DNA from: a virus
Virus record (IMG/VR): IMGVR_UViG_3300049847_000416
Coordinates: 1-64,000 of that record
Direction: 5' to 3' (one strand)
Length of the DNA stretch: 64,000 nucleotides
The notes beneath the pieces were generated by a model that saw only the letters and a program-made list of their open reading frames with translations, was not told the DNA's origin and ran no database searches. Below, one piece after another: positions 33,181 to 60,616 of the stretch. The first letter of the stretch is position 1; each line of letters starts with the position of its first letter. Made by a program: the position numbers and the translations under genes.

Positions 33181-33290
33181 GATTACTCCTTGAAAATTTT
33201 CGTGAGCACTTGATCTCTCTGTGGAAGTGGAGTAACCCGGCTTCGACAAGCGGCTTCAGCCCGGCTGAAGTGCGATCTGGCTCTACCAAA

Positions 33291-35142: not shown

Positions 35143-35799
35143 TCACCCGCACAGCCAATCTTGGTCTACGAGAACACCAGTGTCCCACTTCCAAGACACA
35201 AAATTGTGGTGCGCCACAATTCCTTTGTGGCTGCACGCCAGGGCGGGACACACGTCTAATCGCTGAGCTTTGGGAAGCGGGACGAGCGGGATATTCCAGC
35301 GCTTCGCGAGCATCTGCACCAACTCTTTGAGGGCTTGTTGCTGCGGTGGGGTGATTGCAGCCCAGAAGTCAAATCCCCGCCATGCCTTCGCCACATACTT
35401 CGTGGGTTCGTCCAGCGAACAATAGACTTTCCCGTACGTGTCCAGGAGTTGCTTGCCCTTCAGCTTCAGCGGTCCTTCACACACGACTTCAATTCCTATG
35501 GACCGTGTGTTAACGGATGTGGGACATACGTCCGTTCCGCCAATGTGCCAAGCCCACCCCTTGGCTGGATCAAAACATTGGTAGACCACGGACACACCTT
35601 TGACAGGTTTGTCTACCAAATAGGGGGTGGCGACTCTCACTTCGTGCCCGTCTTGCTTGTCTGCGACCCAGCCAGCGTATGCGCCGGCTGCTGTGTACCC
35701 AGCGGTGTAGTGCAACAAGATACGGTCATAGGTGGGAGTCCCTACGTGCGCCACCCATTGATTGGGTGCCAGAGAAAATTTCTGAGTGTCCAAAATCAC
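35143..35799 (-). CDS. N-acetylmuramoyl-L-alanine amidase (Amidase_2), probable endolysin
   Basis: ILLHYTAG, AWHIG, NTRSIGIE and IVAH......KWD motifs. Confidence 0.88.
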   Translation of the reverse strand: MILDTQKFSLAPNQWVAHVGTPTYDRILLHYTAGYTAAGAYAGWVADKQDGHEVRVATPYLVDKPVKGVSVVYQCFDPAKGWAWHIGGTDVCPTSVNTRSIGIEVVCEGPLKLKGKQLLDTYGKVYCSLDEPTKYVAKAWRGFDFWAAITPPQQQALKELVQMLAKRWNIPLVPLPKAQRLDVCPALACSHKGIVAHHNFVSWKWDTGVLVDQDWLCG

Positions 35800-37183: not shown

Positions 37184-37753
37184 CTACTTTTTCATCCGGC
37201 TGCGTAGGATCATAAGCGCACGGGTATGGGCTTCAGCCGCTTCCGCTTTCGTGATCCCCAATTTTTGGGCGATCTGGCCCATGGGACTATCCTGGAAGTA
37301 CTTGTGATAGATGACCGCGCGTTGAAGGGCAGTCAAGTGGGGCAGGGCATCCCGCAGTTGCTTCTTCAGGACCTGCATGTCGTGTGCTTCTTCCACAGCC
37401 GGGATACCGCCAAGCGTGGGGTCTGCCCGCTGCTGGTGAGGCGCGCCCCAGGGTTCGGTCCGCTTCATGTAGTTCATCTCAACGCGCATCAAGTCGAGAT
37501 ACGCCCCTTTGATGTGGGGGATCAGGAAAGAGGATAACGCGGAAGACTGGTCGTACCGATTGTGCGCTCGCATCACGCGAACTACCGCCGCACTCAGAAA
37601 GTCTTCGAATGTTGACGTGCCCGGATCCGCCGCCTTGAAGCTCTTGCAAGATCGCATGACGTACTGAACGATCATGGGGTAGACCTCGCGGGGCTGGCCG
37701 TCTTTGCCTTTAAGTTCGAGACTGAGGCGTGGGAACTGTTTGTGAGTTCTCAT
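37184..37753 (-). CDS. phage RNA polymerase sigma factor (FliA/WhiG-like, regions 2 and 4)
   Basis: EDFLSAA......A..RYD....SSF....IKGA.LD.MR; LT..QRAVI...YF......IAQKLGIT......HTRAL..LR; AAGGA RBS before ATG 37753. Confidence 0.85.
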   Translation of the reverse strand: MRTHKQFPRLSLELKGKDGQPREVYPMIVQYVMRSCKSFKAADPGTSTFEDFLSAAVVRVMRAHNRYDQSSALSSFLIPHIKGAYLDLMRVEMNYMKRTEPWGAPHQQRADPTLGGIPAVEEAHDMQVLKKQLRDALPHLTALQRAVIYHKYFQDSPMGQIAQKLGITKAEAAEAHTRALMILRSRMKK

Positions 37754-37764
37754 GTATTCCTTTG

Positions 37765-40400: not shown

Positions 40401-42242
40401 TTACTTTCGGAAGCCGACCAGGGCTTGTCCCGCTCCTCGGGCTGGATGGTGTCTCCATTGTGTCCAGCCTACGAAATTTCCCTTGCCGGAACCAGGGGTG
40501 CAGGCATGTTCGAACGGCGACCCATGCTCCGGCTCCGCTGTGCTCAGATCGTTGTACAACCGGAGGTCTTCCTTATAGTCAATCTTCCCGGACTGGGTCA
40601 AGTAGGACGTGCGGGCGCTCCGAGCGCACGAGATCTGGATCCGCATCAAGATGTCTGCCAACTCCGTTGGTGGTTTATCAGCCAACGTCGCCGGAATGAA
40701 CGGAAGGTGCCACTCTCCCTTTTTGACCAGTTTGGGAATACTGGCCGCGAGGGCTTTGCGCATCTCGCGGGATGGCGCAGCAATCTCCGGTTGCGCCAAC
40801 TCGGAATCTCGCTGGGCAAAGTAGTTGTCCCACTCAGTACTGGTGACAAGAACCGTATGCCACAAGAACGGTTCCAGCACCCGGTTGGCAATCTGCTTGT
40901 GCAGACCCAGCACGTCCAGAGTGAAAGCAATTCCACAGGCGAGTAGCGCGCCGACGCGCCAGGCCACGCGGGCTACAAACTGTTTCCACCCAGTGATGGG
41001 TTGCCCAGCCTGCATGCCCTTTTTGTTCCGACCCCAATCCAAGGGGAAGGCGCAGTCGAACAGAACACTCTTAATGCGTTTGCGGATAGGGATAGCGCGT
41101 GAAGATGCGGAGTTCCGGGAATTGTGAACCACTACTCCGTTTGCGAAGAAATTGGGATATTCGCTGTCTATCTCAAGATCATAAGTAGGTTCGTCGCCTC
41201 GATAGGTCACTGACTCAACCTGGGCGGGTGCCGCGTACAGGTGATTACCACTGTCCTGCCAGCCCTGTACTTTGTGTTCTGTTTGATGACAAGAGGAGCA
41301 AAGCAACGTCACATTCGTCGGATCATACACACGCTCAGGAGCTTGGTAGACTGGGATGACGTGGTGAACTTCGACCCCGAGGTTATCACACCTTCGACAA
41401 GAGGGATTCTCTTTCTGCAACCGAGTCCGCTGCTCACGCTGCCACTGGGCTCGCCACCGCCCATCAAGGTACTTTAACCGGTTCGCGTCTTTCCGCTCAG
41501 ACGCAGGGCGACCAAACTTCTGCGTGAGGATAAAATCTGCCGTGGTCAAGTCGCCAATGGTCTTCCAACCTGCCGTAGTTAAAACGCGGTGGTCCAAGCT
41601 CCCAGCTACGCAAAAGGCACCGGCTTTGACTTCGTACACCGGTTTCGTTCCTGAAACCTGCACGTTCTTCACACGTGCCCACTGAACAACGCCAGTCTGT
41701 TCATTAACCTGGCGAATTCGCATGGACTGCAAACGTGCCCGCATGTCAAAACGCGTGTGTGGCGGAACAGCACTCCGCCATGCCTTCAAGTCCTTCCCCA
41801 AAACCTGCCAATCCTCACTGCGTTGTGTTTTGGTCCCTAGGCATGCTCCTGACCGGCATGCCACCCGAATAGGTCCCGGCGTAGCCATACCCATTTTTTC
41901 CGCAGCATCTTTCGCGGTGTACACAGCCGAATCTTCACACCAACTTAGATCATACGCGAGTTTGGGATTGGCTCCATGTCGGTTCGCACCGTGTAGCCAC
42001 CGATCCACAAAAGTGTCCAAGCGCACTCGGTGCGAACGTCGAGAGCCGCCCTTCTGGGGCGTGGGTAAATCAAACTCTAGCTCAGCATCTCCCGCTAAGC
42101 AGAAGGTTCTGTGAGTGTTAAATTCCGGCAATACAAATCGGTGCATGACTACCAGTAGAGTAGTCACGCGCACGCCGGCGGTAGAAATCGAGTCTGCAAT
42201 CACCTCGGCAGACGGCTTTGTTCGGTTGTAGAGATTGATCAT
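40401..42242 (-). CDS. thyX: flavin-dependent thymidylate synthase ThyX containing an intein
   Basis: EFNTHRTF[intein]SRNSASSRAIP; HKQIANR.LEPF; AQPEI; SARTSY; H.SPFEH. Confidence 0.92.
   Translation of the reverse strand: MINLYNRTKPSAEVIADSISTAGVRVTTLLVVMHRFVLPEFNTHRTFCLAGDAELEFDLPTPQKGGSRRSHRVRLDTFVDRWLHGANRHGANPKLAYDLSWCEDSAVYTAKDAAEKMGMATPGPIRVACRSGACLGTKTQRSEDWQVLGKDLKAWRSAVPPHTRFDMRARLQSMRIRQVNEQTGVVQWARVKNVQVSGTKPVYEVKAGAFCVAGSLDHRVLTTAGWKTIGDLTTADFILTQKFGRPASERKDANRLKYLDGRWRAQWQREQRTRLQKENPSCRRCDNLGVEVHHVIPVYQAPERVYDPTNVTLLCSSCHQTEHKVQGWQDSGNHLYAAPAQVESVTYRGDEPTYDLEIDSEYPNFFANGVVVHNSRNSASSRAIPIRKRIKSVLFDCAFPLDWGRNKKGMQAGQPITGWKQFVARVAWRVGALLACGIAFTLDVLGLHKQIANRVLEPFLWHTVLVTSTEWDNYFAQRDSELAQPEIAAPSREMRKALAASIPKLVKKGEWHLPFIPATLADKPPTELADILMRIQISCARSARTSYLTQSGKIDYKEDLRLYNDLSTAEPEHGSPFEHACTPGSGKGNFVGWTQWRHHPARGAGQALVGFRK
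41121..42101 (-). mobile_element. class 1 intein with HNH endonuclease (327 aa)
   Basis: CLAGD start; block B SLDHRVLT; ends NFFANGVVVHN/S; HNH motif CRRC...VHHVIP...NVTLLCSSCH..EH. Confidence 0.92.
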
Positions 42243-42433
42243 CGCAGCATCAGTTGAACGACTTTGGCCGTGAGGCCGATGTACAAGGGGAGGGCAACAA
42301 CCACAGCCACGCCCAGGGCGACCAGTCGCCACTGACCCACGTTCTCAGCGTGCTCCTCGGCATCAGCTTGAAGTTTCAGAACATACTCCGCCAACTGCTG
42401 CGGCGTGAGTTTGGATAAATCAGGTTGGTTCAT
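42239..42433 (-). CDS. small membrane protein
   Basis: C-terminal hydrophobic helix; ATGA coupling to thyX. Confidence 0.55.
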   Translation of the reverse strand: MNQPDLSKLTPQQLAEYVLKLQADAEEHAENVGQWRLVALGVAVVVALPLYIGLTAKVVQLMLR

Positions 42434-45975: not shown

Positions 45976-46470
45976 CTATCGTTCTTCGTACTTGATCGAG
46001 ATGGTGACGACACCCGTCATCACACCTGTGTGAATGGCGAAGGCCTGGTTCATTCCGATTGAAGCATCCACGGGGATCGTCGTGGAACCACCGGCTCCCA
46101 GTGAAAACGCCTTGAAGATGATTTGCCCGGACGCAGCCGCCTGTGGCATGTTCGTCCGCACTTCCGAAAACCCCTGGAGGGTGTCTTGTAGGCCGACCGC
46201 CGCAATCACCGTTCCAGTAGTGGCAACAGTGTGGCGGATCTTTTGGGTAACCACACACGCCGCTGAGCACTCGATGTAAAACGACTGAATGCGGACTTGG
46301 CGTCCACCGTCTTTCAGAACGGTGGATACGGGGTTTACGATGGACAACGCCGCTACCGAAGCAGCGGGAGACAGCGTAGCCGTCGCGACGAACGTTCGCG
46401 AGGTCAAAGAGGACTGGGCAAAGACACAGCCCCCCAGAGCGAACGCTACTAACAGCATTCGCGCGATCAC
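45976..46470 (-). CDS. exported beta-rich protein with Sec signal peptide
   Basis: MIARMLLVAFALGGCVFA/Q; CSAAC pair in the mature part. Confidence 0.65.
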   Translation of the reverse strand: MIARMLLVAFALGGCVFAQSSLTSRTFVATATLSPAASVAALSIVNPVSTVLKDGGRQVRIQSFYIECSAACVVTQKIRHTVATTGTVIAAVGLQDTLQGFSEVRTNMPQAAASGQIIFKAFSLGAGGSTTIPVDASIGMNQAFAIHTGVMTGVVTISIKYEER

Positions 46471-46472
46471 GA

Positions 46473-46949
46473 TTACACTCGCTCCACGGAGAATTCAACC
46501 ACGATGCCAACAGGCACAGTGGTAACGATGGATCCACCGGTGACAGTCACCGTCAGGGCTCCACCATTGGCTCCCGCCGCTTTGTCCGGGGTGATAGACA
46601 GCGGAATCGCGACTCCAGCAGCCACCGCCGCCGTCAGGTTAACGGCTGCCTTGGCAACACCACCCACGTTGAGGGTGACGGTGAGCCCGCCGGCGAGCGG
46701 GGCAATGGCAGCGTCCGCAACCGCCGACACGCTATGAATGCGAATGCGCTTGGTGCTGGGCGGAACGTTCAGGTTGAGCGCCGGCTGACCGGCACGGGCG
46801 TTCAACAAGGCTTGACTGAAGTTATACACATACTTCAGGACCTGATCCTGGTTTCCCAGCTTCTTGTGGTTCTGGTCGTCATGACCGCCAGGAATCAGCA
46901 TACCGCTGTTCATCTGACGGTTGTAGTCGGCAATGTAGTTGGTGCTCAT
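46473..46949 (-). CDS. putative virion decoration protein
   Basis: Ala/Val/Gly beta-rich C-terminal domain; preceded by the late-type motif. Confidence 0.5.
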   Translation of the reverse strand: MSTNYIADYNRQMNSGMLIPGGHDDQNHKKLGNQDQVLKYVYNFSQALLNARAGQPALNLNVPPSTKRIRIHSVSAVADAAIAPLAGGLTVTLNVGGVAKAAVNLTAAVAAGVAIPLSITPDKAAGANGGALTVTVTGGSIVTTVPVGIVVEFSVERV

Positions 46950-46958
46950 GTCACTTTA

Positions 46959-46966
46959 TAAGATCG
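46959..46966 (-). promoter_or_regulatory. putative late promoter CGATCTTA
   Basis: 9 nt upstream of ATG 46949. Confidence 0.6.
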
Positions 46967-49895: not shown

Positions 49896-50429
49896 CTAGG
49901 GGATCAGTTTGGCGAACGGAGCCACCGTACCACGGTACTCACCAAAAAACAGGCGAGTGTCACAGCCCCCGACAGGGAGACTGATTGTGCGGTTTGGAAC
50001 CGCGAGAGCTTGCACAATAGACGCCGGCGTCTGCACCGGTCTGAATTCCTGGGCCAGGCGGCGGAACGTCGCGCCACCCAAAGCACTGAAGTACCGCATC
50101 TGCGGCCCCTTGGACGGACCCGGCAAGGTACTCAATGCATCAGACAGGAATCCAAGAGCCAGAAACAGCTTGTGCTTCTTGTTGGGCTTGTGGGCTGTCT
50201 CTAAAATCGTAAGATTCAGTGCTGGCGAAATCACGGAGATCTGATCCACCTGGATCAGCCGACCTTCATCTACCGCGAGGGCTGCCGTAGTTGGGTTGCA
50301 TACTGTGACCGAGTACAAACCAACACGGTGCTGCTTTTCTCCCACGGCTGACCGGAACGTGCTCAGCGGTACGTGAGAGTATTGGGCCACCGCCTGCGCC
50401 AGCGTAGCAACGACAAGGGGAAGGATCAT
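49896..50429 (-). CDS. putative exported protein
   Basis: MILPLVVATLAQAVA/Q; two Cys in the mature part. Confidence 0.55.
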   Translation of the reverse strand: MILPLVVATLAQAVAQYSHVPLSTFRSAVGEKQHRVGLYSVTVCNPTTAALAVDEGRLIQVDQISVISPALNLTILETAHKPNKKHKLFLALGFLSDALSTLPGPSKGPQMRYFSALGGATFRRLAQEFRPVQTPASIVQALAVPNRTISLPVGGCDTRLFFGEYRGTVAPFAKLIP

Positions 50430-50518: not shown

Positions 50519-50540
50519 ACGCTTAGTGTATCACACTGTG

Positions 50541-50567
50541 GAAAAGGACGGGAGAAAGCTCCCGTCC
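50541..50567 (-). terminator. terminator closing the exported-protein operon
   Basis: GGACGGGAG-CTTT-CTCCCGTCC followed by TTTTC. Confidence 0.75.
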
Positions 50568-50591
50568 CAGCCCAGAACAAACCAAACAAAA

Positions 50592-50792
50592 TCAAGACAG
50601 CTTTTCCCACGCGGCTTGCACACGCTTCCACTGCTGGATGTCGCGGATCCCCGATTCCAGACGTGCAATATACCGGTTGAACTCGACCCCGAATGCGTTG
50701 AGACGCACGTCGTCCGTGGGAGCAGCCGCCGGCACTTCCTCTGCCTTCCGGCGAGCCCACTGGATCCATGCCCTACGCGTAATACTGATCAC
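50592..50792 (-). CDS. hypothetical protein
   Basis: GTGA-coupled last gene of the operon. Confidence 0.55.
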   Translation of the reverse strand: MISITRRAWIQWARRKAEEVPAAAPTDDVRLNAFGVEFNRYIARLESGIRDIQQWKRVQAAWEKLS

Positions 50793-51085
50793 GGAGCCAG
50801 GAGAGTGATCTCAGGCAGACTGTCCACAGTAGGACTGTCCATCACCCACCCCTGGTTTTGAAAGGCGTCCCGGAGGATGCTATACAAATCCCCTTGCTGG
50901 CTGGACGCCCACAGAGGAGCAGTCTCAACCAGAGTCGCGTAGGAGAAAGGCACAACAACCCCGGACGGAGCCCCGAGCGCTTGCATTGTCGCGAGCAGCT
51001 TGGCTGCTAGCACGTTCCCTTGCTTGACCAGAGCAGCCCCCTGGACATCGCTGGGTTTCGGAATCGTTAGTGTGATAGATGGCAT
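50789..51085 (-). CDS. hypothetical protein (possible fibre partner or chaperone)
   Basis: Starts 2 nt after the stop of the Gly-rich protein. Confidence 0.55.
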   Translation of the reverse strand: MPSITLTIPKPSDVQGAALVKQGNVLAAKLLATMQALGAPSGVVVPFSYATLVETAPLWASSQQGDLYSILRDAFQNQGWVMDSPTVDSLPEITLLAP

Positions 51086-51087
51086 GA

Positions 51088-52308
51088 TTACATTGACACC
51101 ACGAACACCCGACCTGCGCCACCTGCGCCACCTGCGCCAGAGGTAGTAGGAGGCCCTCCAATACCAGCGCTACCGCCGCCGCCGCCGCCACCAGGAACAC
51201 CACCGGCACCACCGGCACAACCAGAAGTAGTAGTGGTCGAACCTCCACCTCCGCCCCCTTCGCCTCCACGCAGATCTGTATAGCTAGTCCCGGCTGTTCC
51301 AGCCGTGCATGTGATACCGTTGTTGCCTGTAGCTGTTCCAATGATGACGGCTTCAATGGCTCTAGCAGACGCACGAGCGGAAGCCGAAGTGGTACCAGCC
51401 GCACTCGTCCCACCGCCGCCACCTCCTGCACCTGCTCCACGCAAACTAGATTGGGCGGTAACAACAGGTGCTGCTACAGCAGCAGCCCCATTACCCCCAT
51501 TCACTCCTGGGATCTGGTTAGGGGACACCCCAAGCACGGCACCGGCACCACCAGCAGCGGCAGCAGTGCCACCACTTCCACCACTAGGCGCATTAGCCGG
51601 AGCGAAAAGAGTACCAAAGCTGCTCAAGCCTCCTGTACCTCCTGAAGCCCCATTAGCTGGTGAAATGGCGGGTGCCCCCGCACCCCCACCGGCACCTACA
51701 GTAATGGTCACCTGTGAAGGGAGTGCCGAGCACGCGAAGTCCATGAAGAACATCGGAGAACTTGCGCCACCTCCCCCGCCACCATGAATCTGCACGGCCA
51801 CGTTGTCAACACGGCCTGATCCCCCGCCACCACCTCCATGCCAGAGGTACACAGACACCTTACCGCATTTATCCGGTTTCTTCCACGTGCCGTTTGCCGC
51901 GAACATCTGATAGTTAGCGCCGTTATCCGCTACAGATTGCTGAGTAATCAACTGCCACAAGTTCTGCTCCCCATTCCACTGACAAGTGAAACTTGGGTAA
52001 ACCGAGGTGGGTACCCCGTCGGGGGCGGCGGGGAGCGCCGTAGGGCAGTCCCAGTTGGAAGAGATTGTAATCGTCGAGATCGGGAAACCGCTAACGTTAG
52101 AAATCGTGATGCGCTGACCATCTACAATCCCAACGTCCACTACCACCGGAAGGGCGGCGGCAGACGGATTCAACCGAACGTTGATCTGCTTGTCACCAGT
52201 TATCGGGACCGTAAACCCGGCTGTGAGATTGGTGATGTTGTAGGTAACTGTGTCGGTCTGACCAACCAAAACTGATGAAGCCACACAGGCGAGGAAAAGT
52301 AGTCTCAT
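51088..52308 (-). CDS. glycine-rich fibre-like protein with Sec signal peptide
   Basis: MRLLFLACVASSVLVG/Q; F.ANGTWKKP...V.V...GGGGGGSG...ITVGAGG...SSFG...GGAGRVFVV, the Gly-rich domain typical of phage fibres. Confidence 0.75.
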   Translation of the reverse strand: MRLLFLACVASSVLVGQTDTVTYNITNLTAGFTVPITGDKQINVRLNPSAAALPVVVDVGIVDGQRITISNVSGFPISTITISSNWDCPTALPAAPDGVPTSVYPSFTCQWNGEQNLWQLITQQSVADNGANYQMFAANGTWKKPDKCGKVSVYLWHGGGGGGSGRVDNVAVQIHGGGGGGASSPMFFMDFACSALPSQVTITVGAGGGAGAPAISPANGASGGTGGLSSFGTLFAPANAPSGGSGGTAAAAGGAGAVLGVSPNQIPGVNGGNGAAAVAAPVVTAQSSLRGAGAGGGGGGTSAAGTTSASARASARAIEAVIIGTATGNNGITCTAGTAGTSYTDLRGGEGGGGGGSTTTTSGCAGGAGGVPGGGGGGGSAGIGGPPTTSGAGGAGGAGRVFVVSM

Positions 52309-52322
52309 AGTAATTTCCATAT

Positions 52323-52781
52323 CTAGAGCTTGTTCACAATGAAACGAATGTTGTAGCTTGCCGTGCCAGTGGTGCAAGTATTCCCAACCGTAGTTTCGTA
52401 GGAGATATCTTGGCCTGAGGCCAAATGAACGAGGATGCTACCAGACACATACCTCCGAGTAATACCAACTACTCCGCTACTCGCCTGCACAGAGGGACTA
52501 CTGAAGATTCTGGCACCACCATCATTCCAGCGCAAGCGAATAAAGTTGGTGGTGAATCCAGTTGTGCAAGCCGCATTCATCCACATGTGGTAGTCAATTC
52601 TACGCAAACCAACCGCGCCGCTCGTGACGAGATTGGTCTGTGCAACAGACGCTGAAGACGCACTAATTGTAATGTCTGCCTCAGGAGGAGCGGCTGCCCC
52701 ACCTCCACCGCCACCCGTGCTGCCCGTCGATTGTGCGAGGAGTGCTGTTGCCAGCACTCCAATCATGAAAAGGTATCGCAT
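52323..52781 (-). CDS. exported beta-sandwich protein with Sec signal peptide
   Basis: TAATG-coupled start at 52781; MRYLFMIGVLATALLA/Q; two Cys. Confidence 0.75.
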   Translation of the reverse strand: MRYLFMIGVLATALLAQSTGSTGGGGGGAAAPPEADITISASSASVAQTNLVTSGAVGLRRIDYHMWMNAACTTGFTTNFIRLRWNDGGARIFSSPSVQASSGVVGITRRYVSGSILVHLASGQDISYETTVGNTCTTGTASYNIRFIVNKL

Positions 52782-55700
52782 TACTTTACCTGACCTCCGA
52801 AGAACACGGACGCGGACGCTGTCTGAGTGAAACACCCGGTCGTCGAGAACACGGCCACAATTCCTGTGGAGAAGTGGGCTGGGTACGTTTGATGGCTGAG
52901 ACTCGTGGTCTGGTTGGCTGGAGCCACCACGCAGTGCACCGGAGTAACCGGCCCATCGGCGGGTGCTGTAGTTGAGTTGAACAGCATCAGATACCCGGCT
53001 GTGGCTCCCACCGTCACGTGCAGGCTGTACAGATTACCTGCACTCGTCTTCAGTGCGATGCTGGACGTAATCGCAGGCGAGGCCACCGGCAACAGAGCGT
53101 TTGCAGCCAACGAAGTTGGTGCGTTGATAATCTCCGTGCGTCCGCTGGCGTCACGAACTTCGGGGTTCGCCACTGCGATGGGGCCTTGCCCCTGGGAGGG
53201 ACTCGTGAACCATGACAAATTCACAGAACCCGACGTATAAGAAGTGGCTCTCAAACGCACGTCCACCAAACCCACGGTGTTGATCGTGCCAATAACCGGC
53301 CCAGTAAAAGGCCCGTATGTGAGAACTTCGCCACCCGTGGCCCCACTGACTTGCACCGGAATGCGAATCCATGCAGTGCCACCCTGTCTACCCTCAACTA
53401 CCAGCGAGGCCACAAATGGACCCGCGTTGGACAATCTAAAGGACATGCTGGGAGACCCTGGGGGCACAATCAAAGACGCTGACGAATTGGCTGTTGGTGT
53501 ACCTGTGATGAGCGTTTGACCAAACCCGGTTGACGTGGTCACTGACGCCACGTCAGCAGCAGATATCACGGCACCCGCCGATCCGTTGGCGTAGCTACCC
53601 TGCACTGCAAACAGCGGTTGACTAGCCGTACCACCCTGCCCATTCGGAGACAGGCTAACAGGTACTGAGGTTTCTGTGCCATCCGTGGAAGTGGATGGGG
53701 GCACAAGCGTCAGGCTATTGATCCCGTCTGACTGCTGCACAGTGAAAGGTGTTGCGGCATCGTTTTGATCGACCTTCAAACCATCCTGAACCTTTACAGC
53801 GTTCAAGACAGCTTTCAACACGCCATCGGGCATCGTTGCGAACTGAACATCCGCTTGACCAGTCATCGGTGCAATCGAACGAACGCGGATACGAATCATA
53901 CCCGAAGTGCTAACCAATCCAGAGAAAGGGCTTGTGAAAGTTGAAGCAGCAGTCGTTACTCCCATCTGGTGTAGAGGCAACCGGGTCCAGTAGGCATTGT
54001 CAAACGTACCTTCGACTGCTAGAGTGCCCGTGAACGTATTTGTCACCTGAATGTAAGCCGCGTTCACCTGAGACAGTCCGCCAAGATCATGGAAAGACAG
54101 GGCCGTCGGTGTTCCAGTGACGACGATCTGCCCATTTGCAACCGCCACAGCGGTTGACCCTGCGTCTTGAGTGGTGATGGCCGTGATGCTGGTAAGAGCC
54201 TGTCCACGGTTAGCGAGAACTGTACGCAGCGTACCGGCGTCAGAAACTCCGTAGTTGACGGAAGGCGCGATGTTGTTGATCCCCAGCAAATTCGTAGAAG
54301 ATACCAGAGCGTCAGGAATGTGGTCCCCGGAGTACAGCGTAGTAACCGTAAGCAGACCTCCGGTAATCGCACTGTTTACCCGCATTTTCACAAAGCGATA
54401 TGGCGTGTTAACAACGAAGAACTTAGCTGTGTTATTTGCCACAACCGGCTGGAGCGCGACAAAACCAAACTCCTCATCTCTCACAGAAAGAGTATAGTAG
54501 TCCGTCCCGTTGTTGGACCCTTGGAAGACGTAGGAGCCGCCAGTGACACCAGAGCCGGTAACGCCAATGCGCAAAGAGCGCACCGCATAACCCACGCCGG
54601 TCTGCTGAAGGTCCACAGCATCAGCCGATCCATCCTTAGCCAGGAGATTACCACCCACTACGGTTACGCCCGTGGTGGTCACGGTAATTTCCTTGGATGG
54701 CGGAACGTTGCGATACCCGCCGATTTCGATGTACCCGGTCCAGGTTGCCAAAGACGGATCCGCTGCTACGCTCGCACGCAAATAAGGTGCGTCGGTCACG
54801 AAGCTGAAAAATCGATTCCACGCATTAAACTTGTATGTGGTAGTTGGACGCCACGTAACTGCGTCGTTGCTTTCTTCCACTGTGATCGTCGATGTCAGCG
54901 CATCCGATGTTGCGGAAGCTTGAGCCGGAATAGACACCTGCCAATAACGGCAACCCCGCATTGAAGCAGGCTGCCCACTCGGGGTAGCAATACCCGTGTT
55001 CTTGTCAATCGTCTGATCGTAGCTCCACGGTGTACCTCCGCCCACGCCGGGATTCCAGGTATCCCGGCAAAGTGCTTCATTGGCGGTATACAGCGTGTTC
55101 TGCTGATTGCTAATCGGACGGGTGCCAGACCCATCTGCTTTGGAGCTTGCGTACTGATCATGGGCAGCATACTTGAACTGTCCGCTTGCTAGATTCCACT
55201 CAACAGGAACATGCGCCTGTCGCCAACCATCCAAACGGACGGTGTAAACCGCACCAATCGGACCAGTGCTGTTAACACGAAGTTGGTTTGCACCAAAGCC
55301 GAGGACAGACGGCTGAATAGCGAAGTCTCTGTAGCCCGGTGAAACGAGAGTTCCGCTCAGGTTGACTCCCCCAAATCCGGCGGCGGTGTGCAATTCGTAC
55401 ACCCCAGAGGAGCTAACCGTACCAGCCGCGTTCGCAGCTTCAATAAATGTGGCATGTGAACCCGCCGTGTTCACACCAGGTAGAATCATTCTCCAGAACA
55501 TGCACCCGCGAACATCGGAGACAGACTGGCTCTTGTTGTCGTAGAAGGCTGACGCAACCGGCGCGCCGGTACCTGTGAAGGTGTACGTGATGGAGCAATC
55601 TGGCACCGGCTGAGAAGAAGAGCTACTCACTTGAACCAGACCGCCCAGGATCGGCAGCTTTTCAGATACCGTAACGTAGGATTTCGTGATCACAACATTC

Positions 55701-58700
55701 GCAGTTCCAGTCATAACAGCGGTTGACCGAACGCGGACGTTCGTCATGCCCACCGTGCTCACGGTTCCTTGGAAATTCTGAGTGAACGACGTACCAGGGG
55801 CAACCATCTCCGTTTGAGAAACAACCGCAGGCGTCCAGGTAGTTCCATTGTCCGCTGAGACTTCCAGACGAACCGTACCCGTCCAGGTTCCTTTGACCAG
55901 GACATGCACGGATGGGACGCTCACGAGGCTGATTGCCGCAGCAGAGAGCGCTGTAGGCGCTCCCGTGATGAACAACTGACCGTTGGCACCAACAGACTGC
56001 ACAGAAACGATGTCCTGTGTGCTGATCGAGATGCTATTCACCTGATCCTGTGGGCCGACAGTGTCCACCAACAGGCGATTGGTGAGAGGGGACTTCGGGA
56101 GATTGTTCACCGACACATCATTGACGCCGACTGTCTTGATGATGGAAACGCCCACCGTACCTGAAGTCCAACTCAACAGGCGAATGCGGTAGTGGGTCGC
56201 ACCCAAGGTGGATACCACGCCCACGAACGAATTTTCGTTGGCAACAGGGGACACAAAAGACGTAGCATTGTAAGCCACTCCATTCTGCTGAACAGAGGCG
56301 GGTGTGTAGGTCAAGCCACCGTCGAAGCTGATCTCTGAACTGATAGCCGACACACCAACCTGAACCGCAGTCACCCGGATAGCGGAAACAGACGACAGAG
56401 GGAACACCGCTGCGGAACCGGCGTCAGGGACACCAGCAAACGTCTGTTGACCATTCGCCAGAGTGGTGGTAACCACTGTAGCGTCATTCACCGTCAAGGT
56501 GATCGGACCAGCCGTTGTGTCAGCAGCAGCCGCTGTATTGACCTGGAGCACACCTCCCGAAATGGGGAGCTTTTCCTGCAAAGGGCTGTAGGTCGCCAGG
56601 AGTACAACGTTAGCCGTACCAGTCATGACAGCGGTGGAGCGCACGCGAATGTGTGTAGCACCATTCACAGAGACAGCGCCCACGAAGTTGGCAATAAAGG
56701 AAGTCGCCGGAGCCGTAGTATTGGTTTGGGAAACGGCTGTAGGCACCCACGTGGTTCCACCATCAATGGAGGTTTCCACCTGCAAAGTACCGGTCCAGAT
56801 TCCGGTCACTTGGATACGCGCCGTCTGGTTGCTGGTAAGCGTGGCCTGCACGAAGGACGCAACGGTAGGAACACCCGTAATCAAAGACTGCCCGTTCGCT
56901 CCAGCAGTTGATACAGACACAATGTCCTGGGCTGTGATCGCCGCAGAAGTGGAGGTGTCGGGCGGGTTCTGAGCATCCACTTGAACGCGGCTGGTGACCG
57001 TGTTCTGGGGCAGATTCGAGATAGACACAGAGGACGGCCCTGCCGTCTTGACCACGGTAACACTGAGTGTACCAGAGGTGAACGTGGTGACACGAACTCG
57101 CAGATGAGTTGCACCCTGCGTGTTGACCGTACCCACCAAGTTCATCTGGGTGCCGACTGCACCGGTCCAGGCCGAGAAAGGCTTGACAACCTCAGGCTGC
57201 AATATGTCTGCCCGGTAGAATCTAACACCACCGTCGAAGCTGACTTCAGCCACCGCAGTACCGATCATGTTTCCAGTCGTTTGCAACTTCACAAGGGGAA
57301 CGGACGCCAGAGTGAACAAAGCTTCAGAGCCGGCAGTAGCCAAGCTTCCGTTGGTGAAAGTTTTTCCGTTGGCGAGAGTGCCTGAGGTGGTTCCGCTGTC
57401 ATCGACGGTAAGAACAACCGGACCTGCGGTGGTGTCCGCAGCCGATGCCGTGTTCACCTGAACCTTGCCGCCCACGATGGGCATTTTGTCTTTGGCTGTG
57501 GTATAGCGGGCGTACAGCGCAACCTGCGCAGTTCCGGTATGAACAGCCGTCTCGCGGATTCGGACGCCCACGGCACCCTGGGTGTCCACGGTTCCAGCAA
57601 AATTCTGCGTAAACAGTGTGGAAGGCGCAACGGTGTCAGTCTGAGACACGGCTACAGGGATCCAGATGGTTCCGTCATAGGTGATTTCCGCTTGCAGGCT
57701 GCCCGTCCAGGCGTTTGATGCCTGAACCACCACTGAAGGAATGTTGTTCAGTGTGGCGGTTGCGAAAGATGCAGCGGTAGGAACACCAGTCACAAAAGAC
57801 TGGCCGTTCGCCCCGGCTGCGGTAACCGAAACAACGTCCCGTGCGGTGATGTTGCTGGTGCTGAGCAGCGCATCGGGAACAGGAGCCGTCTCCACCTGAA
57901 CGCGGTTGAGAGCGCTCTTGGGTAAGTTGTTGATGGAAACGACGCCGGCAGTCGGGCTCTCCACAATGGAGACAGCCGCATTTGCGGCGGTGAACGAGGT
58001 GCAACGAATCCGGTAGTGAGTGGCTCCCGCCGTGTTCACCTTACCCGTGATCTGGTCTTCAGTACCTGTGGTGGTAAAAGCCGAGCTACCGATGGAGGTG
58101 CCTTCTTGGAGCACGGGGGCCGGGAACCAAGTCCCGCCTCCGTCAAAGCTGATTTCAGACAGCAACGTACCAGCGAAACCACCGGTGACCATGTTCACCT
58201 GTACAGAGGCGGCAGACGCCAGTACGAAGGCCGCAGCGGATCCCGCTGTGGGAACACCAATCGTGTAAGTCTGGCCATTCACGCCGGTGGTAGTAACCGC
58301 CACGGCGTCTTGCGCACTGATGTTGATCGTGGCAGACGGGATGTTTGCGGGAGCGCTGGCCCCGCTCACCTGGAGCTTGCCGCCCAAGATGGGCAACACC
58401 TGTGGTCCCGGCTGGTAAGACGGGACGAGGGACACAATCGCTGTGCCAGTCATAGCGGCGACCGCACGGATACGCAGGTTCGTCGCACCAACCGTATTCA
58501 CTTGGCCGATGAAGTTCTGGGTGAAGGAAGAGGACGTGGCCGTAGAATCGGCCTGCACAACGACTGCCCGCGTCCAGGTGACGCCGCTGTCAATCGAAGT
58601 TTCTACCTGGAGGGTACCGCTCCACGTACCCTTCGCCTGAACCATGGTCGTTTGGTTGCCGATCAAGGCAACCTGTGCAAAAGAGTTCACGGTCGGCGGT

Positions 58701-60295
58701 CCATTGGTGAAGAACGGTTGCCCATTGGCTCCCGCTGAAGTGACAACCACGGCGTCTTGAGTCGTGATGTTGATGGCGCTCGCAACACCGTCAACCGGAA
58801 CGCTCACCTGAACTTTATTGTTCGAGATGGGCAGCTTGTCGGGGACCGCACCTGAGGACTTCACGAACGCCACTGACGCGGAACCCGTCATGACAGCAGT
58901 CGAGCGCACGCGCACGTCGGTTGCGCCAATAGTCGTCAAGGAAGCGATGAAATTCTGGGTGAAAGAACTGGCTGGAGCAGTGGTGCCAGTCTGTGAGACA
59001 ACAGTCGGGGTCCAATTCGCCCCGTTGTCCATCGAAGTTTCGACCTGGAGGTTTCCCGTCCAGGTTCCGGTGACTTGGATCCGTGTGGTTTGGGTACCAC
59101 TGAGGGTAGTCGCCGCGAAGGATGCGGCAGTCGGAACACCAGTCACCAAGCTTTGGCCATTGGCAGCGGCAGCAGTAGCGGACACGATGTCCTGCGTAGT
59201 AACCGCAACGGCGGCAACTGCTGTGTCTGCTGTACTGGTGGCAGCGGCGTAGCGCCACTCGTTAGCGGTTGAGTTGTAAGTTACCGGAACCGGAGCCGTG
59301 CGCCAGCCATCGACCCTAATTTGATACACGATACCCGTGCCGCCACGAGTGCGGACGCGCAACATACCTACACCATTGGAGGTAGCAGTGACGTTCGGAA
59401 CAACCGCAACGTCTTGGTACCGGCTGGTGGCGTGGGTACCAATCAAAGACGGCACACCTCCGCCGTCCAGGCGATAGAACCCGTTGACGCTGGTCGTACC
59501 AGCCAATGTTCGCCCCTCAAGCGTTAAAGCAGCCATCAAAGCCGCAGAGGTATTCGGCAGCATGACGATACGCCAGAAAGTGCAACCCCGTCGATCCGCA
59601 GCCGACTGCGGAGCATTCGAGTAATCAGCGCTAAACAAATCCGTTGCCGCACCGGCTCCCGTGAATGTGGTGGTAAAAGAACAGTCGGGCGTGCTCAAAC
59701 TCGCTTGTGGAACGGTGGAGAGCAGTTCGGCGGGGGGTGTTCTGAAACCAAACAACTTGGCTTCGAGTGTCGTAGCTCCCGCAGCCGTATACGTCAGGCG
59801 CAGCCAGGGCGTGTAGCCAGACAGTACGGCTGCGCCGTAGCCAACGGCTTCAGTGGAAGTCTGAGACCCGTTGACGGGGGTGAGACCAGACGTGGCGTAC
59901 ACACCAGGAGTACCGCCCACATCCGCCGCCGTTTGGAGGTTGACGGTAGTGGACGTGGTGTTAGGGTGGTTCCACACCAGCACCCAATACCGGCAGGACG
60001 TAGTCGCGGCGCTGTTCGTGCGATTGTCCAAATCGGTGGACGTACCGCTGGTGGCGGCGGCTGTGACAGAGTAGGTCAGAGCGCAGTCGGCAGAAGCGGT
60101 GGACCCAGCCACCAGCAAATTTCCAGACGCGTCCACCTTGAGCGTTTGTAGGACTAGGCCGGGGTCAATGCCCTGGACCGCGACGGGATTCGTCACCGTA
60201 ACCGCACCCGAAGCACCCGAACCACCCCCGGACGGGGGAAACTGAGCGAACGCCGAAGCGGTCAATAGCGAAACAGCAATCCAAATCTTGCGCAT
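52781..60295 (-). CDS. giant (2504 aa) multi-repeat beta-sandwich protein with Sec signal peptide
   Basis: MRKIWIAVSLLTASAFA/QFPP; 10 repeats of about 150 aa (QD...ANGQ...TGVPT...GTW.G.L.VE.S.DGG..W...GAT..RVR); 4 Cys-pair domains (C...[RS]GC.[FY]W-like); distinct C-terminal domain. Confidence 0.85.
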   Translation of the reverse strand: MRKIWIAVSLLTASAFAQFPPSGGGSGASGAVTVTNPVAVQGIDPGLVLQTLKVDASGNLLVAGSTASADCALTYSVTAAATSGTSTDLDNRTNSAATTSCRYWVLVWNHPNTTSTTVNLQTAADVGGTPGVYATSGLTPVNGSQTSTEAVGYGAAVLSGYTPWLRLTYTAAGATTLEAKLFGFRTPPAELLSTVPQASLSTPDCSFTTTFTGAGAATDLFSADYSNAPQSAADRRGCTFWRIVMLPNTSAALMAALTLEGRTLAGTTSVNGFYRLDGGGVPSLIGTHATSRYQDVAVVPNVTATSNGVGMLRVRTRGGTGIVYQIRVDGWRTAPVPVTYNSTANEWRYAAATSTADTAVAAVAVTTQDIVSATAAAANGQSLVTGVPTAASFAATTLSGTQTTRIQVTGTWTGNLQVETSMDNGANWTPTVVSQTGTTAPASSFTQNFIASLTTIGATDVRVRSTAVMTGSASVAFVKSSGAVPDKLPISNNKVQVSVPVDGVASAINITTQDAVVVTSAGANGQPFFTNGPPTVNSFAQVALIGNQTTMVQAKGTWSGTLQVETSIDSGVTWTRAVVVQADSTATSSSFTQNFIGQVNTVGATNLRIRAVAAMTGTAIVSLVPSYQPGPQVLPILGGKLQVSGASAPANIPSATINISAQDAVAVTTTGVNGQTYTIGVPTAGSAAAFVLASAASVQVNMVTGGFAGTLLSEISFDGGGTWFPAPVLQEGTSIGSSAFTTTGTEDQITGKVNTAGATHYRIRCTSFTAANAAVSIVESPTAGVVSINNLPKSALNRVQVETAPVPDALLSTSNITARDVVSVTAAGANGQSFVTGVPTAASFATATLNNIPSVVVQASNAWTGSLQAEITYDGTIWIPVAVSQTDTVAPSTLFTQNFAGTVDTQGAVGVRIRETAVHTGTAQVALYARYTTAKDKMPIVGGKVQVNTASAADTTAGPVVLTVDDSGTTSGTLANGKTFTNGSLATAGSEALFTLASVPLVKLQTTGNMIGTAVAEVSFDGGVRFYRADILQPEVVKPFSAWTGAVGTQMNLVGTVNTQGATHLRVRVTTFTSGTLSVTVVKTAGPSSVSISNLPQNTVTSRVQVDAQNPPDTSTSAAITAQDIVSVSTAGANGQSLITGVPTVASFVQATLTSNQTARIQVTGIWTGTLQVETSIDGGTTWVPTAVSQTNTTAPATSFIANFVGAVSVNGATHIRVRSTAVMTGTANVVLLATYSPLQEKLPISGGVLQVNTAAAADTTAGPITLTVNDATVVTTTLANGQQTFAGVPDAGSAAVFPLSSVSAIRVTAVQVGVSAISSEISFDGGLTYTPASVQQNGVAYNATSFVSPVANENSFVGVVSTLGATHYRIRLLSWTSGTVGVSIIKTVGVNDVSVNNLPKSPLTNRLLVDTVGPQDQVNSISISTQDIVSVQSVGANGQLFITGAPTALSAAAISLVSVPSVHVLVKGTWTGTVRLEVSADNGTTWTPAVVSQTEMVAPGTSFTQNFQGTVSTVGMTNVRVRSTAVMTGTANVVITKSYVTVSEKLPILGGLVQVSSSSSQPVPDCSITYTFTGTGAPVASAFYDNKSQSVSDVRGCMFWRMILPGVNTAGSHATFIEAANAAGTVSSSGVYELHTAAGFGGVNLSGTLVSPGYRDFAIQPSVLGFGANQLRVNSTGPIGAVYTVRLDGWRQAHVPVEWNLASGQFKYAAHDQYASSKADGSGTRPISNQQNTLYTANEALCRDTWNPGVGGGTPWSYDQTIDKNTGIATPSGQPASMRGCRYWQVSIPAQASATSDALTSTITVEESNDAVTWRPTTTYKFNAWNRFFSFVTDAPYLRASVAADPSLATWTGYIEIGGYRNVPPSKEITVTTTGVTVVGGNLLAKDGSADAVDLQQTGVGYAVRSLRIGVTGSGVTGGSYVFQGSNNGTDYYTLSVRDEEFGFVALQPVVANNTAKFFVVNTPYRFVKMRVNSAITGGLLTVTTLYSGDHIPDALVSSTNLLGINNIAPSVNYGVSDAGTLRTVLANRGQALTSITAITTQDAGSTAVAVANGQIVVTGTPTALSFHDLGGLSQVNAAYIQVTNTFTGTLAVEGTFDNAYWTRLPLHQMGVTTAASTFTSPFSGLVSTSGMIRIRVRSIAPMTGQADVQFATMPDGVLKAVLNAVKVQDGLKVDQNDAATPFTVQQSDGINSLTLVPPSTSTDGTETSVPVSLSPNGQGGTASQPLFAVQGSYANGSAGAVISAADVASVTTSTGFGQTLITGTPTANSSASLIVPPGSPSMSFRLSNAGPFVASLVVEGRQGGTAWIRIPVQVSGATGGEVLTYGPFTGPVIGTINTVGLVDVRLRATSYTSGSVNLSWFTSPSQGQGPIAVANPEVRDASGRTEIINAPTSLAANALLPVASPAITSSIALKTSAGNLYSLHVTVGATAGYLMLFNSTTAPADGPVTPVHCVVAPANQTTSLSHQTYPAHFSTGIVAVFSTTGCFTQTASASVFFGGQVK

Positions 60296-60310
60296 ATGAT
60301 GTCTACCTGA

Positions 60311-60318
60311 TAGTATCG
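60311..60318 (-). promoter_or_regulatory. putative late promoter (GC)CGATACTA
   Basis: 15 nt upstream of ATG 60295; GCCGATAC resembles the sigma28 -10 consensus GCCGATAA. Confidence 0.6.
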
Positions 60319-60374
60319 GCAGCCTCACATCTGTGTGGGCTGAACAAGCGGTTCAGAAATTTTCTGAGCCCACC

Positions 60375-60598
60375 AAAAGAATTGGACCAAGGATGTCCTT
60401 GGTCCGTGGAGATAAACTACTTAGGTCAGTTGAAACCGCCGACGGGGTCATCCCGCATTACCCCAGGCTTGTGGGGGGTTTCTTTGAACTTACAGCGGTT
60501 CGAATGGGGCAGGAAGATGTGGTCGGTTTTCTGGGATAGAGGTTGATACCTCGCATGTTCCAGTAGAATCCGGTTAGTAAGACCCTGCCCACTCGACA
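60375..60598 (-). ncRNA. candidate structured ncRNA (about 220 nt)
   Basis: TGCTATACT at 60604-60612; long stems; terminator hairpin 60384-60405 with a U-rich tract. Confidence 0.5.
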
Positions 60599-60616
60599 CT
60601 TTCAGTATAGCACGTT

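What the first reader, a model, noticed from the sequence alone, without database searches (positions are those of the whole stretch)
50541..60318. Putative late operon of Sec-exported, Cys-paired, fibre-like phage proteins
Seen: a translationally coupled five-gene unit bounded by the CGATNNTA motif that also precedes portal, capsid and tape-measure genes (60311) and by a terminator (50541-50567). The first three products (2504-aa repeat protein, 152-aa beta protein, 406-aa Gly-rich protein) start with classical signal peptides cut before Gln (AFA/Q, LLA/Q, LVG/Q). Their mature cysteines come mostly in pairs (11, 2 and 6 Cys). The canonical head and tail proteins in this window lack signal peptides. 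Known: tailed-phage virions assemble in the reducing cytoplasm, and Gly-rich fibre domains are normally cytoplasmic virion parts. Inference: the phage exports fibre-like parts for oxidative folding. They may dock onto virions at or after lysis, or be displayed on the infected cell (adhesion, decoy or superinfection shield). This is the best candidate for an undescribed system.
Basis: partly seen in the sequence, partly recalled or inferred. Interest (0 to 1): 0.9.

Follow-up and report, generated by a model that had tools for sequence, protein, structure and literature searches.

The report
Exported XepA-like fibre proteins of a phage
A 95-kb uncultured tailed phage makes three adjacent late proteins, one of them 2,504 residues long, that carry conserved bacterial secretion signals and paired cysteines, so they very probably mature outside the cytoplasm where the virus particle is built; the giant one belongs to a large, unnamed family of exported phage proteins whose job is still untested.

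Summary
On the minus strand, 60295-50592 is a tightly packed five-gene unit (A 2504 aa, B 152 aa, C 406 aa, D 98 aa, E 66 aa). A CGATACTA motif of the late-gene type sits in front and a hairpin terminator behind. A, B and C start with classical Sec/SPase-I signals cut before Gln.

The only close relatives of A and B, and a third at 33% identity, keep the signal and the mature N-terminus while the signal sequence itself drifts.

New here:
- A's last ~115 residues define a large viral family: 2039 cluster representatives, with no Pfam, PHROG, PDB or GenBank-phage match. About 80% of its members carry a signal peptide.
- In that family the signal co-varies with a Cys pair in the domain, and with a signal on the next gene.
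- Members sit among terminase, portal and capsid genes.

Export and disulfide folding are therefore well supported. What the proteins do afterwards (act on the envelope at lysis, join virions, or be displayed) is not shown. This scan has reported similar exported fibre cassettes on other phage DNA. Host unknown.

The parts
60311..60318 (-). CGATACTA motif 15 nt upstream of the ATG of gene A; same motif class as in front of tape measure, portal and protease genes
52781..60295 (-). Gene A, 2504 aa: signal peptide, Gly linker, N-terminal LxxDxxGNLxV motif, 4 Cys-paired domains, 10 XepA-C/YomS-like beta-sandwich repeats, C-terminal jelly-roll domain
60245..60295 (-). Signal peptide of A (aa 1-17, AFA/Q)
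59225..60118 (-). Cys-paired domains X1 and X2 of A (aa 60-357; Cys71/101 and Cys205/238)
55616..59218 (-). Repeats R1-R8 of A (about 145-155 aa each, most with an Asp-box-like SxDxGxTW)
54596..55618 (-). Cys-paired domains X3 and X4 of A (Cys1567/1598 and Cys1743/1782)
53126..54193 (-). Repeats R9 and R10 of A
52784..53158 (-). C-terminal domain of A (last ~115-125 aa, Cys2455/2488): 8-strand jelly roll that defines a large family of mostly signal-bearing phage proteins
52323..52781 (-). Gene B, 152 aa: signal peptide (LLA/Q), Gly-rich linker, C1q/BclA-like knob look-alike, 2 conserved Cys; start overlaps the stop of A (TAATG)
51088..52308 (-). Gene C, 406 aa: signal peptide (LVG/Q), N-terminal beta domain, Gly_rich_2 (PF21722) tail-fibre-type domain, 6 mature Cys
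50789..51085 (-). Gene D, 98 aa, no signal peptide, no family found
50592..50792 (-). Gene E, 66 aa (GTG start overlapping the stop of D), helical and charged, no signal peptide; reality as a gene not tested
50539..50567 (-). Intrinsic-terminator-like hairpin plus T run closing the unit
45976..46470 (-). Fourth gene with a signal-like N-terminus ending before Gln (164 aa; LGGC could instead be a lipobox), in a second unit behind a CGATCTTA motif at 46959-46966

Best explanation
A, B and C are phage proteins made with the late (virion) genes. They are exported by the host Sec pathway, cut by signal peptidase I before Gln, and locked by disulfides outside the cytoplasm. In a two-membrane host, which the short signals suggest, that compartment is the periplasm.

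A is a greatly expanded member of a large, unnamed viral family. A typical member is 125-400 aa: a signal, often an N-terminal LxLDxxGNLRV motif, then a ~110-aa C-terminal jelly roll with one disulfide pair. A has this same head and tail. Between them lie 4 Cys-paired domains and 10 copies of the beta-sandwich seen in YomS and in the C-terminal half of XepA.

By analogy with XepA, a late PBSX protein that is exported and absent from particles, I think the three most likely stay apart from cytoplasmic virion assembly. They would then act on or bind the cell envelope around the time of lysis, for example by helping release, or by coating receptors and debris.

Shown: the gene unit, the signals and their conservation, the folds, the family and its covariations.
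Inferred: actual export, disulfides, late timing, and above all the function.

My odds: export and oxidative folding about 0.85; a non-virion, envelope-acting role about 0.45.
For: Gene unit and signals.

Signal kept in relatives: P0005 (54% identity) and P0279 (33%) both have a signal followed by QFP(P)SGGG; P0003 (63% to B) has a signal followed by QSTGSTGGGGGG.

Cys pairs are conserved between A and P0005.

Repeat fold: the AF2 model has pLDDT 82. VIA gives YomS 6i5o at Z 12.4 (rmsd 2.0 A over 99 residues) and XepA 6i56 residues 177-279 at Z 11.9 (2.2 A over 100). The next hit scores 7.6. Foldseek also ranks YomS first. XepA is late, exported beyond the membrane and not in particles (PMC6834076).

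C-terminal domain family:
- 2039 representatives at E<1e-3, and 124 of the best 149 carry a signal.
- 98 IMG/VR contigs hold it; 60 of 80 ORFs have a signal.
- The nearest Atlas clusters are viral.
- Neighbours are terminase, portal, adaptor, tail, virion structural and capsid genes.

Covariation: both Cys motifs occur in 173 of 186 signal-bearing members against 13 of 43 without a signal (Fisher p 2e-17). The next gene has a signal in 24 of 35 cases against 2 of 11 (p 0.005). Genes one place downstream carry signals in 54% of loci, against 0-7% at most positions further off, 5-17% just upstream and 8-27% further downstream.

No other gene in this phage shares A's domains.

Late-type motif in front of A.
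Against: No SignalP run and no experiment: export, cleavage and disulfides are inferred.

My signal test is a simple hydrophobicity-and-charge rule. ORFs in the fetched loci were called naively.

Family members are related to each other, so the Fisher p-values overstate independence.

XepA itself has no reported Sec signal, its function is unsettled, and the similarity is in fold only. No Pfam family matched any part of A beyond two borderline whole-protein rows, BNR/Asp-box and Mo-co_dimer.

About 20% of the family lacks a signal and sits in the same kind of two-gene module inside virion operons. That is what one would expect if the ancestral job were a virion part.

The host and its envelope type are unknown.
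Confidence: 0.55

Rival explanations
1. Periplasm-folded virion appendages. A, B and C fold and form disulfides in the periplasm. They join the cytoplasm-built particle only when the holin opens the inner membrane, or at lysis, and serve as long fibres or host-recognition parts. B would be A's partner or tip.
For: All three are built from phage fibre-type modules: Gly_rich_2 in C, a C1q/collagen-fibre knob look-alike in B, and repeats most like uncharacterised Caudovirales proteins in BFVD.

Family members sit inside head, neck and tail operons.

Signal-free and signal-bearing versions occupy the same two-gene module, and the compartment of the two genes switches together.

A carries the same late-type motif as the virion genes.
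Against: In this phage the unit is about 13 kb from the tail genes, and no tail gene shares a domain with A.

The strongly conserved part (45-64% identity) is shared between a 95-kb siphovirus-like genome and ~40-kb contigs whose neighbouring genes include one T7-type tail protein. That fits a host-directed or self-folding role better than a virion socket.

Some members are only a signal plus the C-terminal domain, about 125 aa.

I found no precedent for such assembly in tailed phages in the papers searched.
Confidence: 0.2
2. Moron-type envelope proteins. The unit is an accessory cassette whose products are displayed on, or retained in, the envelope of the infected or lysogenic cell. They would act as an adhesin, a receptor mask or a superinfection-exclusion factor, as with lambda Lom/Bor, T5 Llp, Cor, or the Gln-exposing signal proteins noted in Porphyromonas phages.
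For: It is a self-contained unit with its own upstream terminator (60405-60384), a motif and a downstream terminator.

It lies outside the virion module.

Family copies occur in Sphingobium, Sphingomonas, Stellaceae, Rhodospirillales and Rhodoferax genomes, most likely in prophages.

Precedent for exported phage proteins of unknown role: PMC10367356.

Secreted, surface-displayed phage-like fibres exist in Bdellovibrio (PMC10769870).
Against: No integrase was seen among the genes scanned, and the phage carries its own polymerase, primase and helicase, which suggests a lytic lifestyle.

The motif in front of A is the one in front of virion genes, not a host-type promoter.

No outer-membrane anchor, lipobox, autotransporter or T9SS domain was found in A-C.

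2504 aa is far larger than known exclusion proteins.
Confidence: 0.15
3. The hydrophobic N-termini are not cleaved export signals. A, B and C would be ordinary cytoplasmic virion fibres whose first residues merely look like signals, or are removed by a phage protease.
For: There is no experimental or SignalP evidence here. Capsid proteins with signal-like ends, thought to be cut by the prohead protease, have been reported (PMC10367356).
Against: Three adjacent genes, three relatives and about 80% of a 2000-cluster family all show the n-h-c layout with small residues at -1 and -3.

The mature start is conserved while the signal drifts.

The Cys pair tracks the signal.

Most relatives of C lack such an end.
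Confidence: 0.07

Closest known systems
XepA (XkdY/P31, 'PBSX exported protein', PDB 6i56) and YomS (SPbeta, PDB 6i5o) of Bacillus subtilis prophages
   Same: A's repeat unit superposes on YomS and on XepA residues 177-279 at Z 12.4 and 11.9, well above all other chains. XepA is a late protein encoded beside tail and lysis genes. [quoted passage not shown]
   Different: There is no detectable sequence similarity.

XepA and YomS are small (279 and 112 aa) single or double domains that form pentamers, in a one-membrane host, with no Sec signal reported.

A has ten tandem copies plus other domains, a classical Sec signal and paired cysteines. Its oligomeric state is unknown.
Phage tail-fibre and minor-tail proteins with the glycine-rich domain PF21722 (Gly_rich_2; PHROGs 863, 356, 754, 6202)
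   Same: C matches PF21722 at 56 bits (cut-off 24.3) and several tail-fibre PHROGs.
   Different: About 115 of 119 relatives found have no signal peptide. C has one, plus 6 mature cysteines, and it is not next to the tail genes.
Exported phage accessory proteins: lambda Lom/Bor, T5 Llp, Cor, T4 RI, and the Gln-exposing signal-peptide genes of Porphyromonas gingivalis phages (PMC10367356)
   Same: They are phage-encoded, use the host Sec pathway and work in the envelope. In the Porphyromonas case cleavage exposes Gln, as here.
   Different: Those proteins are small, mostly lipoproteins or membrane proteins, and are often expressed early or from the prophage. A-C are fibre-like and multi-domain (up to 2504 aa), and sit behind a late-gene motif. 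No sequence relation was found.
Bdellovibrio bacteriovorus MAT (mosaic adhesive trimer) fibres (PMC10769870)
   Same: They are phage-like fibre proteins that are secreted, displayed outside the cytoplasm and bind glycans. A Bd2133 fibre domain appears among the weak fold matches of A's repeat, at Z 6.0.
   Different: They are cellular, not viral. The fold match lies within the noise range and no sequence relation was tested.

Membership tests
Sec/signal peptidase I substrates | Basic n-region, 7-15-residue hydrophobic h-region, small uncharged residues at -1 and -3, within the first ~15-30 residues | tested here: met
   Read directly for A, B and C. Heuristic scan of all ORFs. The layout is conserved in P0003, P0005 and P0279.
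Sec/signal peptidase I substrates | Prediction by a trained method (SignalP 6) and experimental cleavage or export | not testable with these tools
   No such tool is offered here, and no proteomics is available.
XepA/YomS family (Pfam XepA PF27453 as named) | Beta-sandwich fold of YomS and the XepA C-terminal domain | tested here: met
   Z 12.4 and 11.9, rmsd 2.0-2.2 A over 99-100 residues; the next chain scores 7.6. Foldseek's top hit is also YomS.
XepA/YomS family (Pfam XepA PF27453 as named) | Sequence match to the family profile | tested here: inconclusive
   No Pfam hit on the whole protein or on its segments at E up to 1. I could not confirm that the local Pfam copy holds PF27453. For the C-terminal domain the Atlas gives XepA only as a weak lead, score 0.75.
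XepA/YomS family (Pfam XepA PF27453 as named) | Pentameric disc assembly; exported and absent from particles | not testable with these tools
Gly_rich_2 (PF21722) phage fibre domain, for protein C | Profile match above the curated cut-off | tested here: met
   56.1 bits against a cut-off of 24.3, residues 141-403.
BNR/Asp-box repeats (PF02012), for protein A | SxDxGxTW-type motif; score above the cut-off | tested here: inconclusive
   27.1 bits against a cut-off of 27, with no single stretch passing on its own. The motif is visible in most repeats, but each sits in a separate beta-sandwich, not in a propeller.
C1q/TNF-like or BclA_C knob, for protein B | Jelly-roll knob at the end of a fibre | tested here: inconclusive
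   Atlas look-alikes only: feature score 0.85-0.87 and TM 0.58 to phage collagen-repeat and C1q-bearing clusters. No Pfam hit.
New family defined by A's C-terminal domain | ~110-aa C-terminal domain with conserved P-x-DG-x-VTP and S-TTGCF-KT motifs | tested here: met
   45-64% identity to 98 viral contigs and to 2039 cluster representatives. Invariant and near-invariant columns are listed.
Two-component spanins (Rz/Rz1) | An inner-membrane protein with an N-terminal anchor and periplasmic coiled coil, plus an outer-membrane lipoprotein with a lipobox | tested here: not met
   A, B and C have SPase-I-type sites and no lipobox. They are beta-rich, not coiled coil.
Bacteroidetes Q-rule substrates | Gln at +1 of the SPase I site, in a Bacteroidota host with glutaminyl cyclase | tested here: inconclusive
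   Gln at +1 in A, B, C, the 164-aa protein and all three relatives. But the host is unknown. An x-[AG]-Q site also occurs in 148 of 231 family members, and the few family copies I could place in bacterial genomes are proteobacterial.

The most novel reading that the evidence does not exclude
Many uncultured tailed phages build part of their host-recognition or appendage set in a different compartment from the particle. Fibre modules with Sec signals fold and form disulfides in the periplasm. They meet the cytoplasm-built virion only in the seconds between holin opening of the inner membrane and rupture of the outer membrane. The two-gene module (a C-terminal-domain protein plus a small partner) would exist in a cytoplasmic and a periplasmic version of the same virion part, and A would be its largest known form.
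Probability: 0.2. Interest if true: 0.9.

Novelty: new variant of a known kind. Interest (0 to 1): 0.72.

Why it matters
Tailed-phage particles are taken to be assembled entirely in the reducing cytoplasm. The exported phage proteins known so far are small lysis, exclusion or conversion factors. Here a fibre-like protein of 2504 residues and two companions carry conserved export signals.

The giant one ties into a family of at least 2000 sequence clusters. That family is almost wholly viral, is embedded in virion operons, and is missing from Pfam, PHROGs, the PDB and 50,697 deposited phage genomes.

The link between signal peptide and cysteine pair gives a clean evolutionary argument that these proteins really work in an oxidising compartment.

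Whatever they do, whether helping release, masking receptors or arming particles after lysis, it is a common and unstudied step in the life of soil and freshwater phages. It could be tested in cultivable carriers such as Sphingobium olei and Sphingomonas melonis. It also gives a structural context for XepA, whose role has been unclear since 1984.

Tried and rejected
Searches that found nothing:
- Viral-contig scans with B and C.
- Viral and metagenome scans with P0003, so the 21,259-bp contig that holds the only close relatives of A and B could not be fetched.
- tblastn of C and of A's C-terminal domain against 50,697 GenBank phages.
- Pfam on seven segments of A at E up to 1.
- Pfam and PHROGs on 58 family members, apart from single stray hits.
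- A profile of the C-terminal domain against PDB sequences: only chance rows.
- phmmer of B, C, D, E, the N-terminus of A and its X3-X4 region against all ORFs of the 80 viral loci.

Host: unresolved. There are no tRNAs in the window and most late genes lack a Shine-Dalgarno sequence. Capsid relatives in cultured phages are at most 30% identical.

My own tests that failed:
- The random-position control for the CGATNNTA motif was uninformative, because internal start codons count.
- My cleavage-site finder for +1 residues was too crude to use.

Readings considered and rejected:
- Spanins: no lipobox or coiled coil.
- T9SS or autotransporter cargo: no such domain was found, but this is not excluded.
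- A bacterial adhesin picked up by the phage: the repeat and C-terminal domains are overwhelmingly viral.

The match of the C-terminal domain to the XepA N-terminal domain (Z 7.2, rmsd 7.8 A) is within the noise range, and I do not rely on it.


Full report
**Setting.** The window is the first 64 kb of a single 95,140-bp contig. It is a tailed-phage genome. PHROGs identify a DNA polymerase, primase, helicase and exonucleases. They also identify a 2150-aa tape measure (19859-26311), major capsid protein (31897-33249), prohead protease, portal (35796-37163), a sigma-like factor (37184-37816) and a large terminase. An Amidase_2 endolysin lies at 35143-35799. Capsid relatives among cultured phages are at most 30% identical. 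No tRNA and no integrase were seen. The host is unknown.

**The observation.** On the minus strand there are five genes: A (52781-60295, 2504 aa), B (52323-52781, 152 aa), C (51088-52308, 406 aa), D (50789-51085, 98 aa) and E (50592-50792, 66 aa).
- The A stop and B start overlap as TAATG. C follows B by 14 nt (or 2 nt), D follows C by 2 nt, and E overlaps D as GTGA.
- A GC-rich hairpin plus T run at 50567-50539 closes the unit.
- Upstream there is a terminator-like hairpin at 60405-60384, then CGATACTA 15 nt before the ATG of A.
- Taken as a raw count, CGATNNTA is not enriched (18 against 13.7). However, 15 of 18 copies are on the coding strand, and about eight lie 0-15 nt before start codons, including those of the tape measure, portal, protease and A. 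Several come directly after a hairpin and have no Shine-Dalgarno sequence. I take it as a real start-associated element of the late genes. It is the subject of other notes.

**Signals and cysteines.**
- A, B and C begin MRKIWIAVSLLTASAFA/Q, MRYLFMIGVLATALLA/Q and MRLLFLACVASSVLVG/Q.
- A rule-based scan of all ORFs and all starts of the genome flags these three, a 164-aa protein at 45976-46470, and little else that is a real gene. None of the head or tail proteins is flagged.
- Mature cysteines number 11, 2 and 6.

**Relatives.** A word-indexed search of 5.8 billion proteins finds one relative each for A (P0005, 2507 aa, 54% identity) and B (P0003, 63%), both on the same 21-kb JGI contig.
- Both keep a signal of different sequence, followed by an identical mature start (QFPPSGGG; QSTGSTGGGGGGAAAPPEAD).
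- A third relative at 33% identity, P0279, again reads signal, then QFPSGGGGG.
- Five Cys pairs of A are conserved in P0005. The unpaired Cys765 is not.
- C matches the phage fibre domain Gly_rich_2 and several tail-fibre PHROGs. About 115 of its 119 relatives have no signal.

**Anatomy of A.** Self-comparison gives this order:
- signal;
- Gly linker;
- a short motif, LQTLKVDASGNLLV;
- two Cys-paired domains (aa 60-357);
- eight ~145-155-aa repeats (aa 360-1560);
- two more Cys-paired domains (aa 1560-1900);
- an unassigned stretch;
- two more repeats (aa 2035-2390);
- a C-terminal domain (aa ~2385-2504).

**The repeat fold.** An AlphaFold model of the repeat, built from the ten copies, has pLDDT 82. 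[quoted passage not shown] Foldseek also ranks YomS first. In predicted viral structures the best matches are uncharacterised Caudovirales proteins (E 8e-7, 28% identity). XepA is the 'PBSX exported protein': late, exported beyond the membrane, not found in particles, and toxic to Bacillus when added from outside (PMC6834076).

**The C-terminal domain family.** An exhaustive phmmer search of 1.84 billion representatives with aa 1556-2504 found 2039 proteins at E<1e-3. Nearly all hits came through the last ~115 residues, at 45-60% identity, and mostly in proteins of 125-500 aa.
- Of the best 149, 124 have a signal peptide by my rule.
- The domain has no Pfam or PHROG model, no relative of known structure by sequence and no match in 50,697 GenBank phages.
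- It does occur in at least 98 IMG/VR contigs. The nearest Atlas clusters are viral.
- It occurs in Sphingobium, Sphingomonas, Stellaceae, Rhodospirillales and Rhodoferax assemblies.
- Its model (pLDDT 89) is an eight-strand jelly roll. It resembles, within the usual noise, TNF/C1q heads, BclA, Ena subunits and small capsid proteins.
- About a fifth of members also share A's N-terminal motif just after the signal (43 of 231 against 7 in shuffles). A therefore looks like a small family member with ~2300 residues of domains inserted.

**Three patterns in the family that bear on mechanism.**
1. In the viral contigs the genes sit among terminase, portal, adaptor, tail, virion structural and capsid genes.
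2. The two conserved cysteines of the domain go with the signal. Both motifs are present in 173 of 186 signal-bearing members against 13 of 43 without a signal, and several of those 13 are truncated gene calls (Fisher p 2e-17). Upstream mature cysteines are even in number in 170 of 186.
3. The gene immediately downstream carries a signal in 54% of loci, against 0-7% at most positions further off, 5-17% just upstream and 8-27% further downstream. Its signal co-varies with that of the domain gene: 24 of 35 against 2 of 11, p 0.005.

This mirrors A and B, whose reading frames are coupled. B looks like a phage C1q/collagen-fibre knob. These statistics use a crude signal rule, naive ORF calls and related sequences, so the p-values are optimistic. 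The direction is nonetheless clear.

**Reading.** Export and oxidative folding are well supported, at about 0.85. The function is not shown.
- I favour a non-virion, XepA-like role in the envelope around lysis, at about 0.45. In this phage the unit is ~13 kb from the tail genes. No other gene shares A's domains. The conserved domain is shared by genomes of very different size and gene content. Some members are only a signal plus the domain.
- The docking reading, in which fibres folded in the periplasm join particles once the holin opens the membrane, stays alive at about 0.2. The modules are fibre-like, they sit in virion operons, and they exist in matched cytoplasmic and exported versions.
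- A moron-type display or exclusion role gets about 0.15.
- A reading in which the N-termini are not signals at all gets about 0.07.

**Known and new.** Exported phage proteins are known: XepA, Lom, Bor, Llp, Cor and RI. Genes with Gln-exposing signals have been noted in Porphyromonas phages (PMC10367356). Secreted phage-like fibres exist in Bdellovibrio (PMC10769870). I found no description of this family, of Sec-signal-bearing XepA/YomS-fold arrays, or of the signal-cysteine covariation. This scan has already reported exported, Cys-paired fibre cassettes on other phage DNA, two of them with XepA/YomS as the closest known relative. Those are unchecked AI notes and not independent evidence, but they show the pattern recurs.

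**Limits.** SignalP was not available. The contig of the closest relatives was not retrievable. The reality of genes D and E was not tested.

Noticed in passing
window 45976-46470 (-): A 164-aa ORF starts MIARMLLVAFALGGCVFA/Q. It is either a fourth Sec signal cut before Gln or a lipoprotein (LGGC lipobox). It follows a 158-aa gene (46473-46949) that has a CGATCTTA motif 9 nt before its ATG.
   Followed up: partly
window 49896-50429 (-): The 177-aa gene just downstream of the unit starts MILPLVVATLAQAVA/Q. It has a hydrophobic core and an AVA/Q site but no basic residue, and carries 2 cysteines. It may be a fifth exported protein.
   Followed up: no
window 37765-40209 (-) and 11526-14213 (-): The 814-aa terminase ORF and an 895-aa helicase-like ORF both carry an N-terminal region that hits the same PHROGs (36964, 19299, 15, 510, 50). 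This could be a shared P-loop or intein-like insertion, or a duplicated module.
   Followed up: no
window 40401-42332 (-): A 643-aa ORF combines a thymidylate synthase match (aa 403-627) with an HNH endonuclease match (aa 285-360). It may be a fusion or a homing-endonuclease insertion.
   Followed up: no
window 60330-60612: The 320-nt gap upstream of gene A holds several hairpins: a 9-bp terminator-like stem at 60405-60384, and a hairpin containing the palindrome CAGAAAATTTCTG. Other first-stage notes flag a structured RNA and a dispersed GAAAWTTTC palindrome here.
   Followed up: no
L011:5301-9676 (IMGVR_UViG_3300028800_000097): Four consecutive genes carry signal peptides (618, 87, 306 and 456 aa). 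The third carries the C-terminal domain, at 64% identity to A, the best among the viral contigs. The fourth starts its mature part with a Gly run followed by SVSVT, like A.
   Followed up: partly
L027:6549-15863: A 66-kb viral contig has a 608-aa signal-bearing C-terminal-domain protein, followed by at least four more signal-bearing ORFs within 9 kb.
   Followed up: no
window, late genes (e.g. 26311, 37163, 46949, 60295): Most late genes lack a Shine-Dalgarno sequence. They start 0-15 nt after the CGATNNTA motif, which suggests very short or absent leaders.
   Followed up: partly
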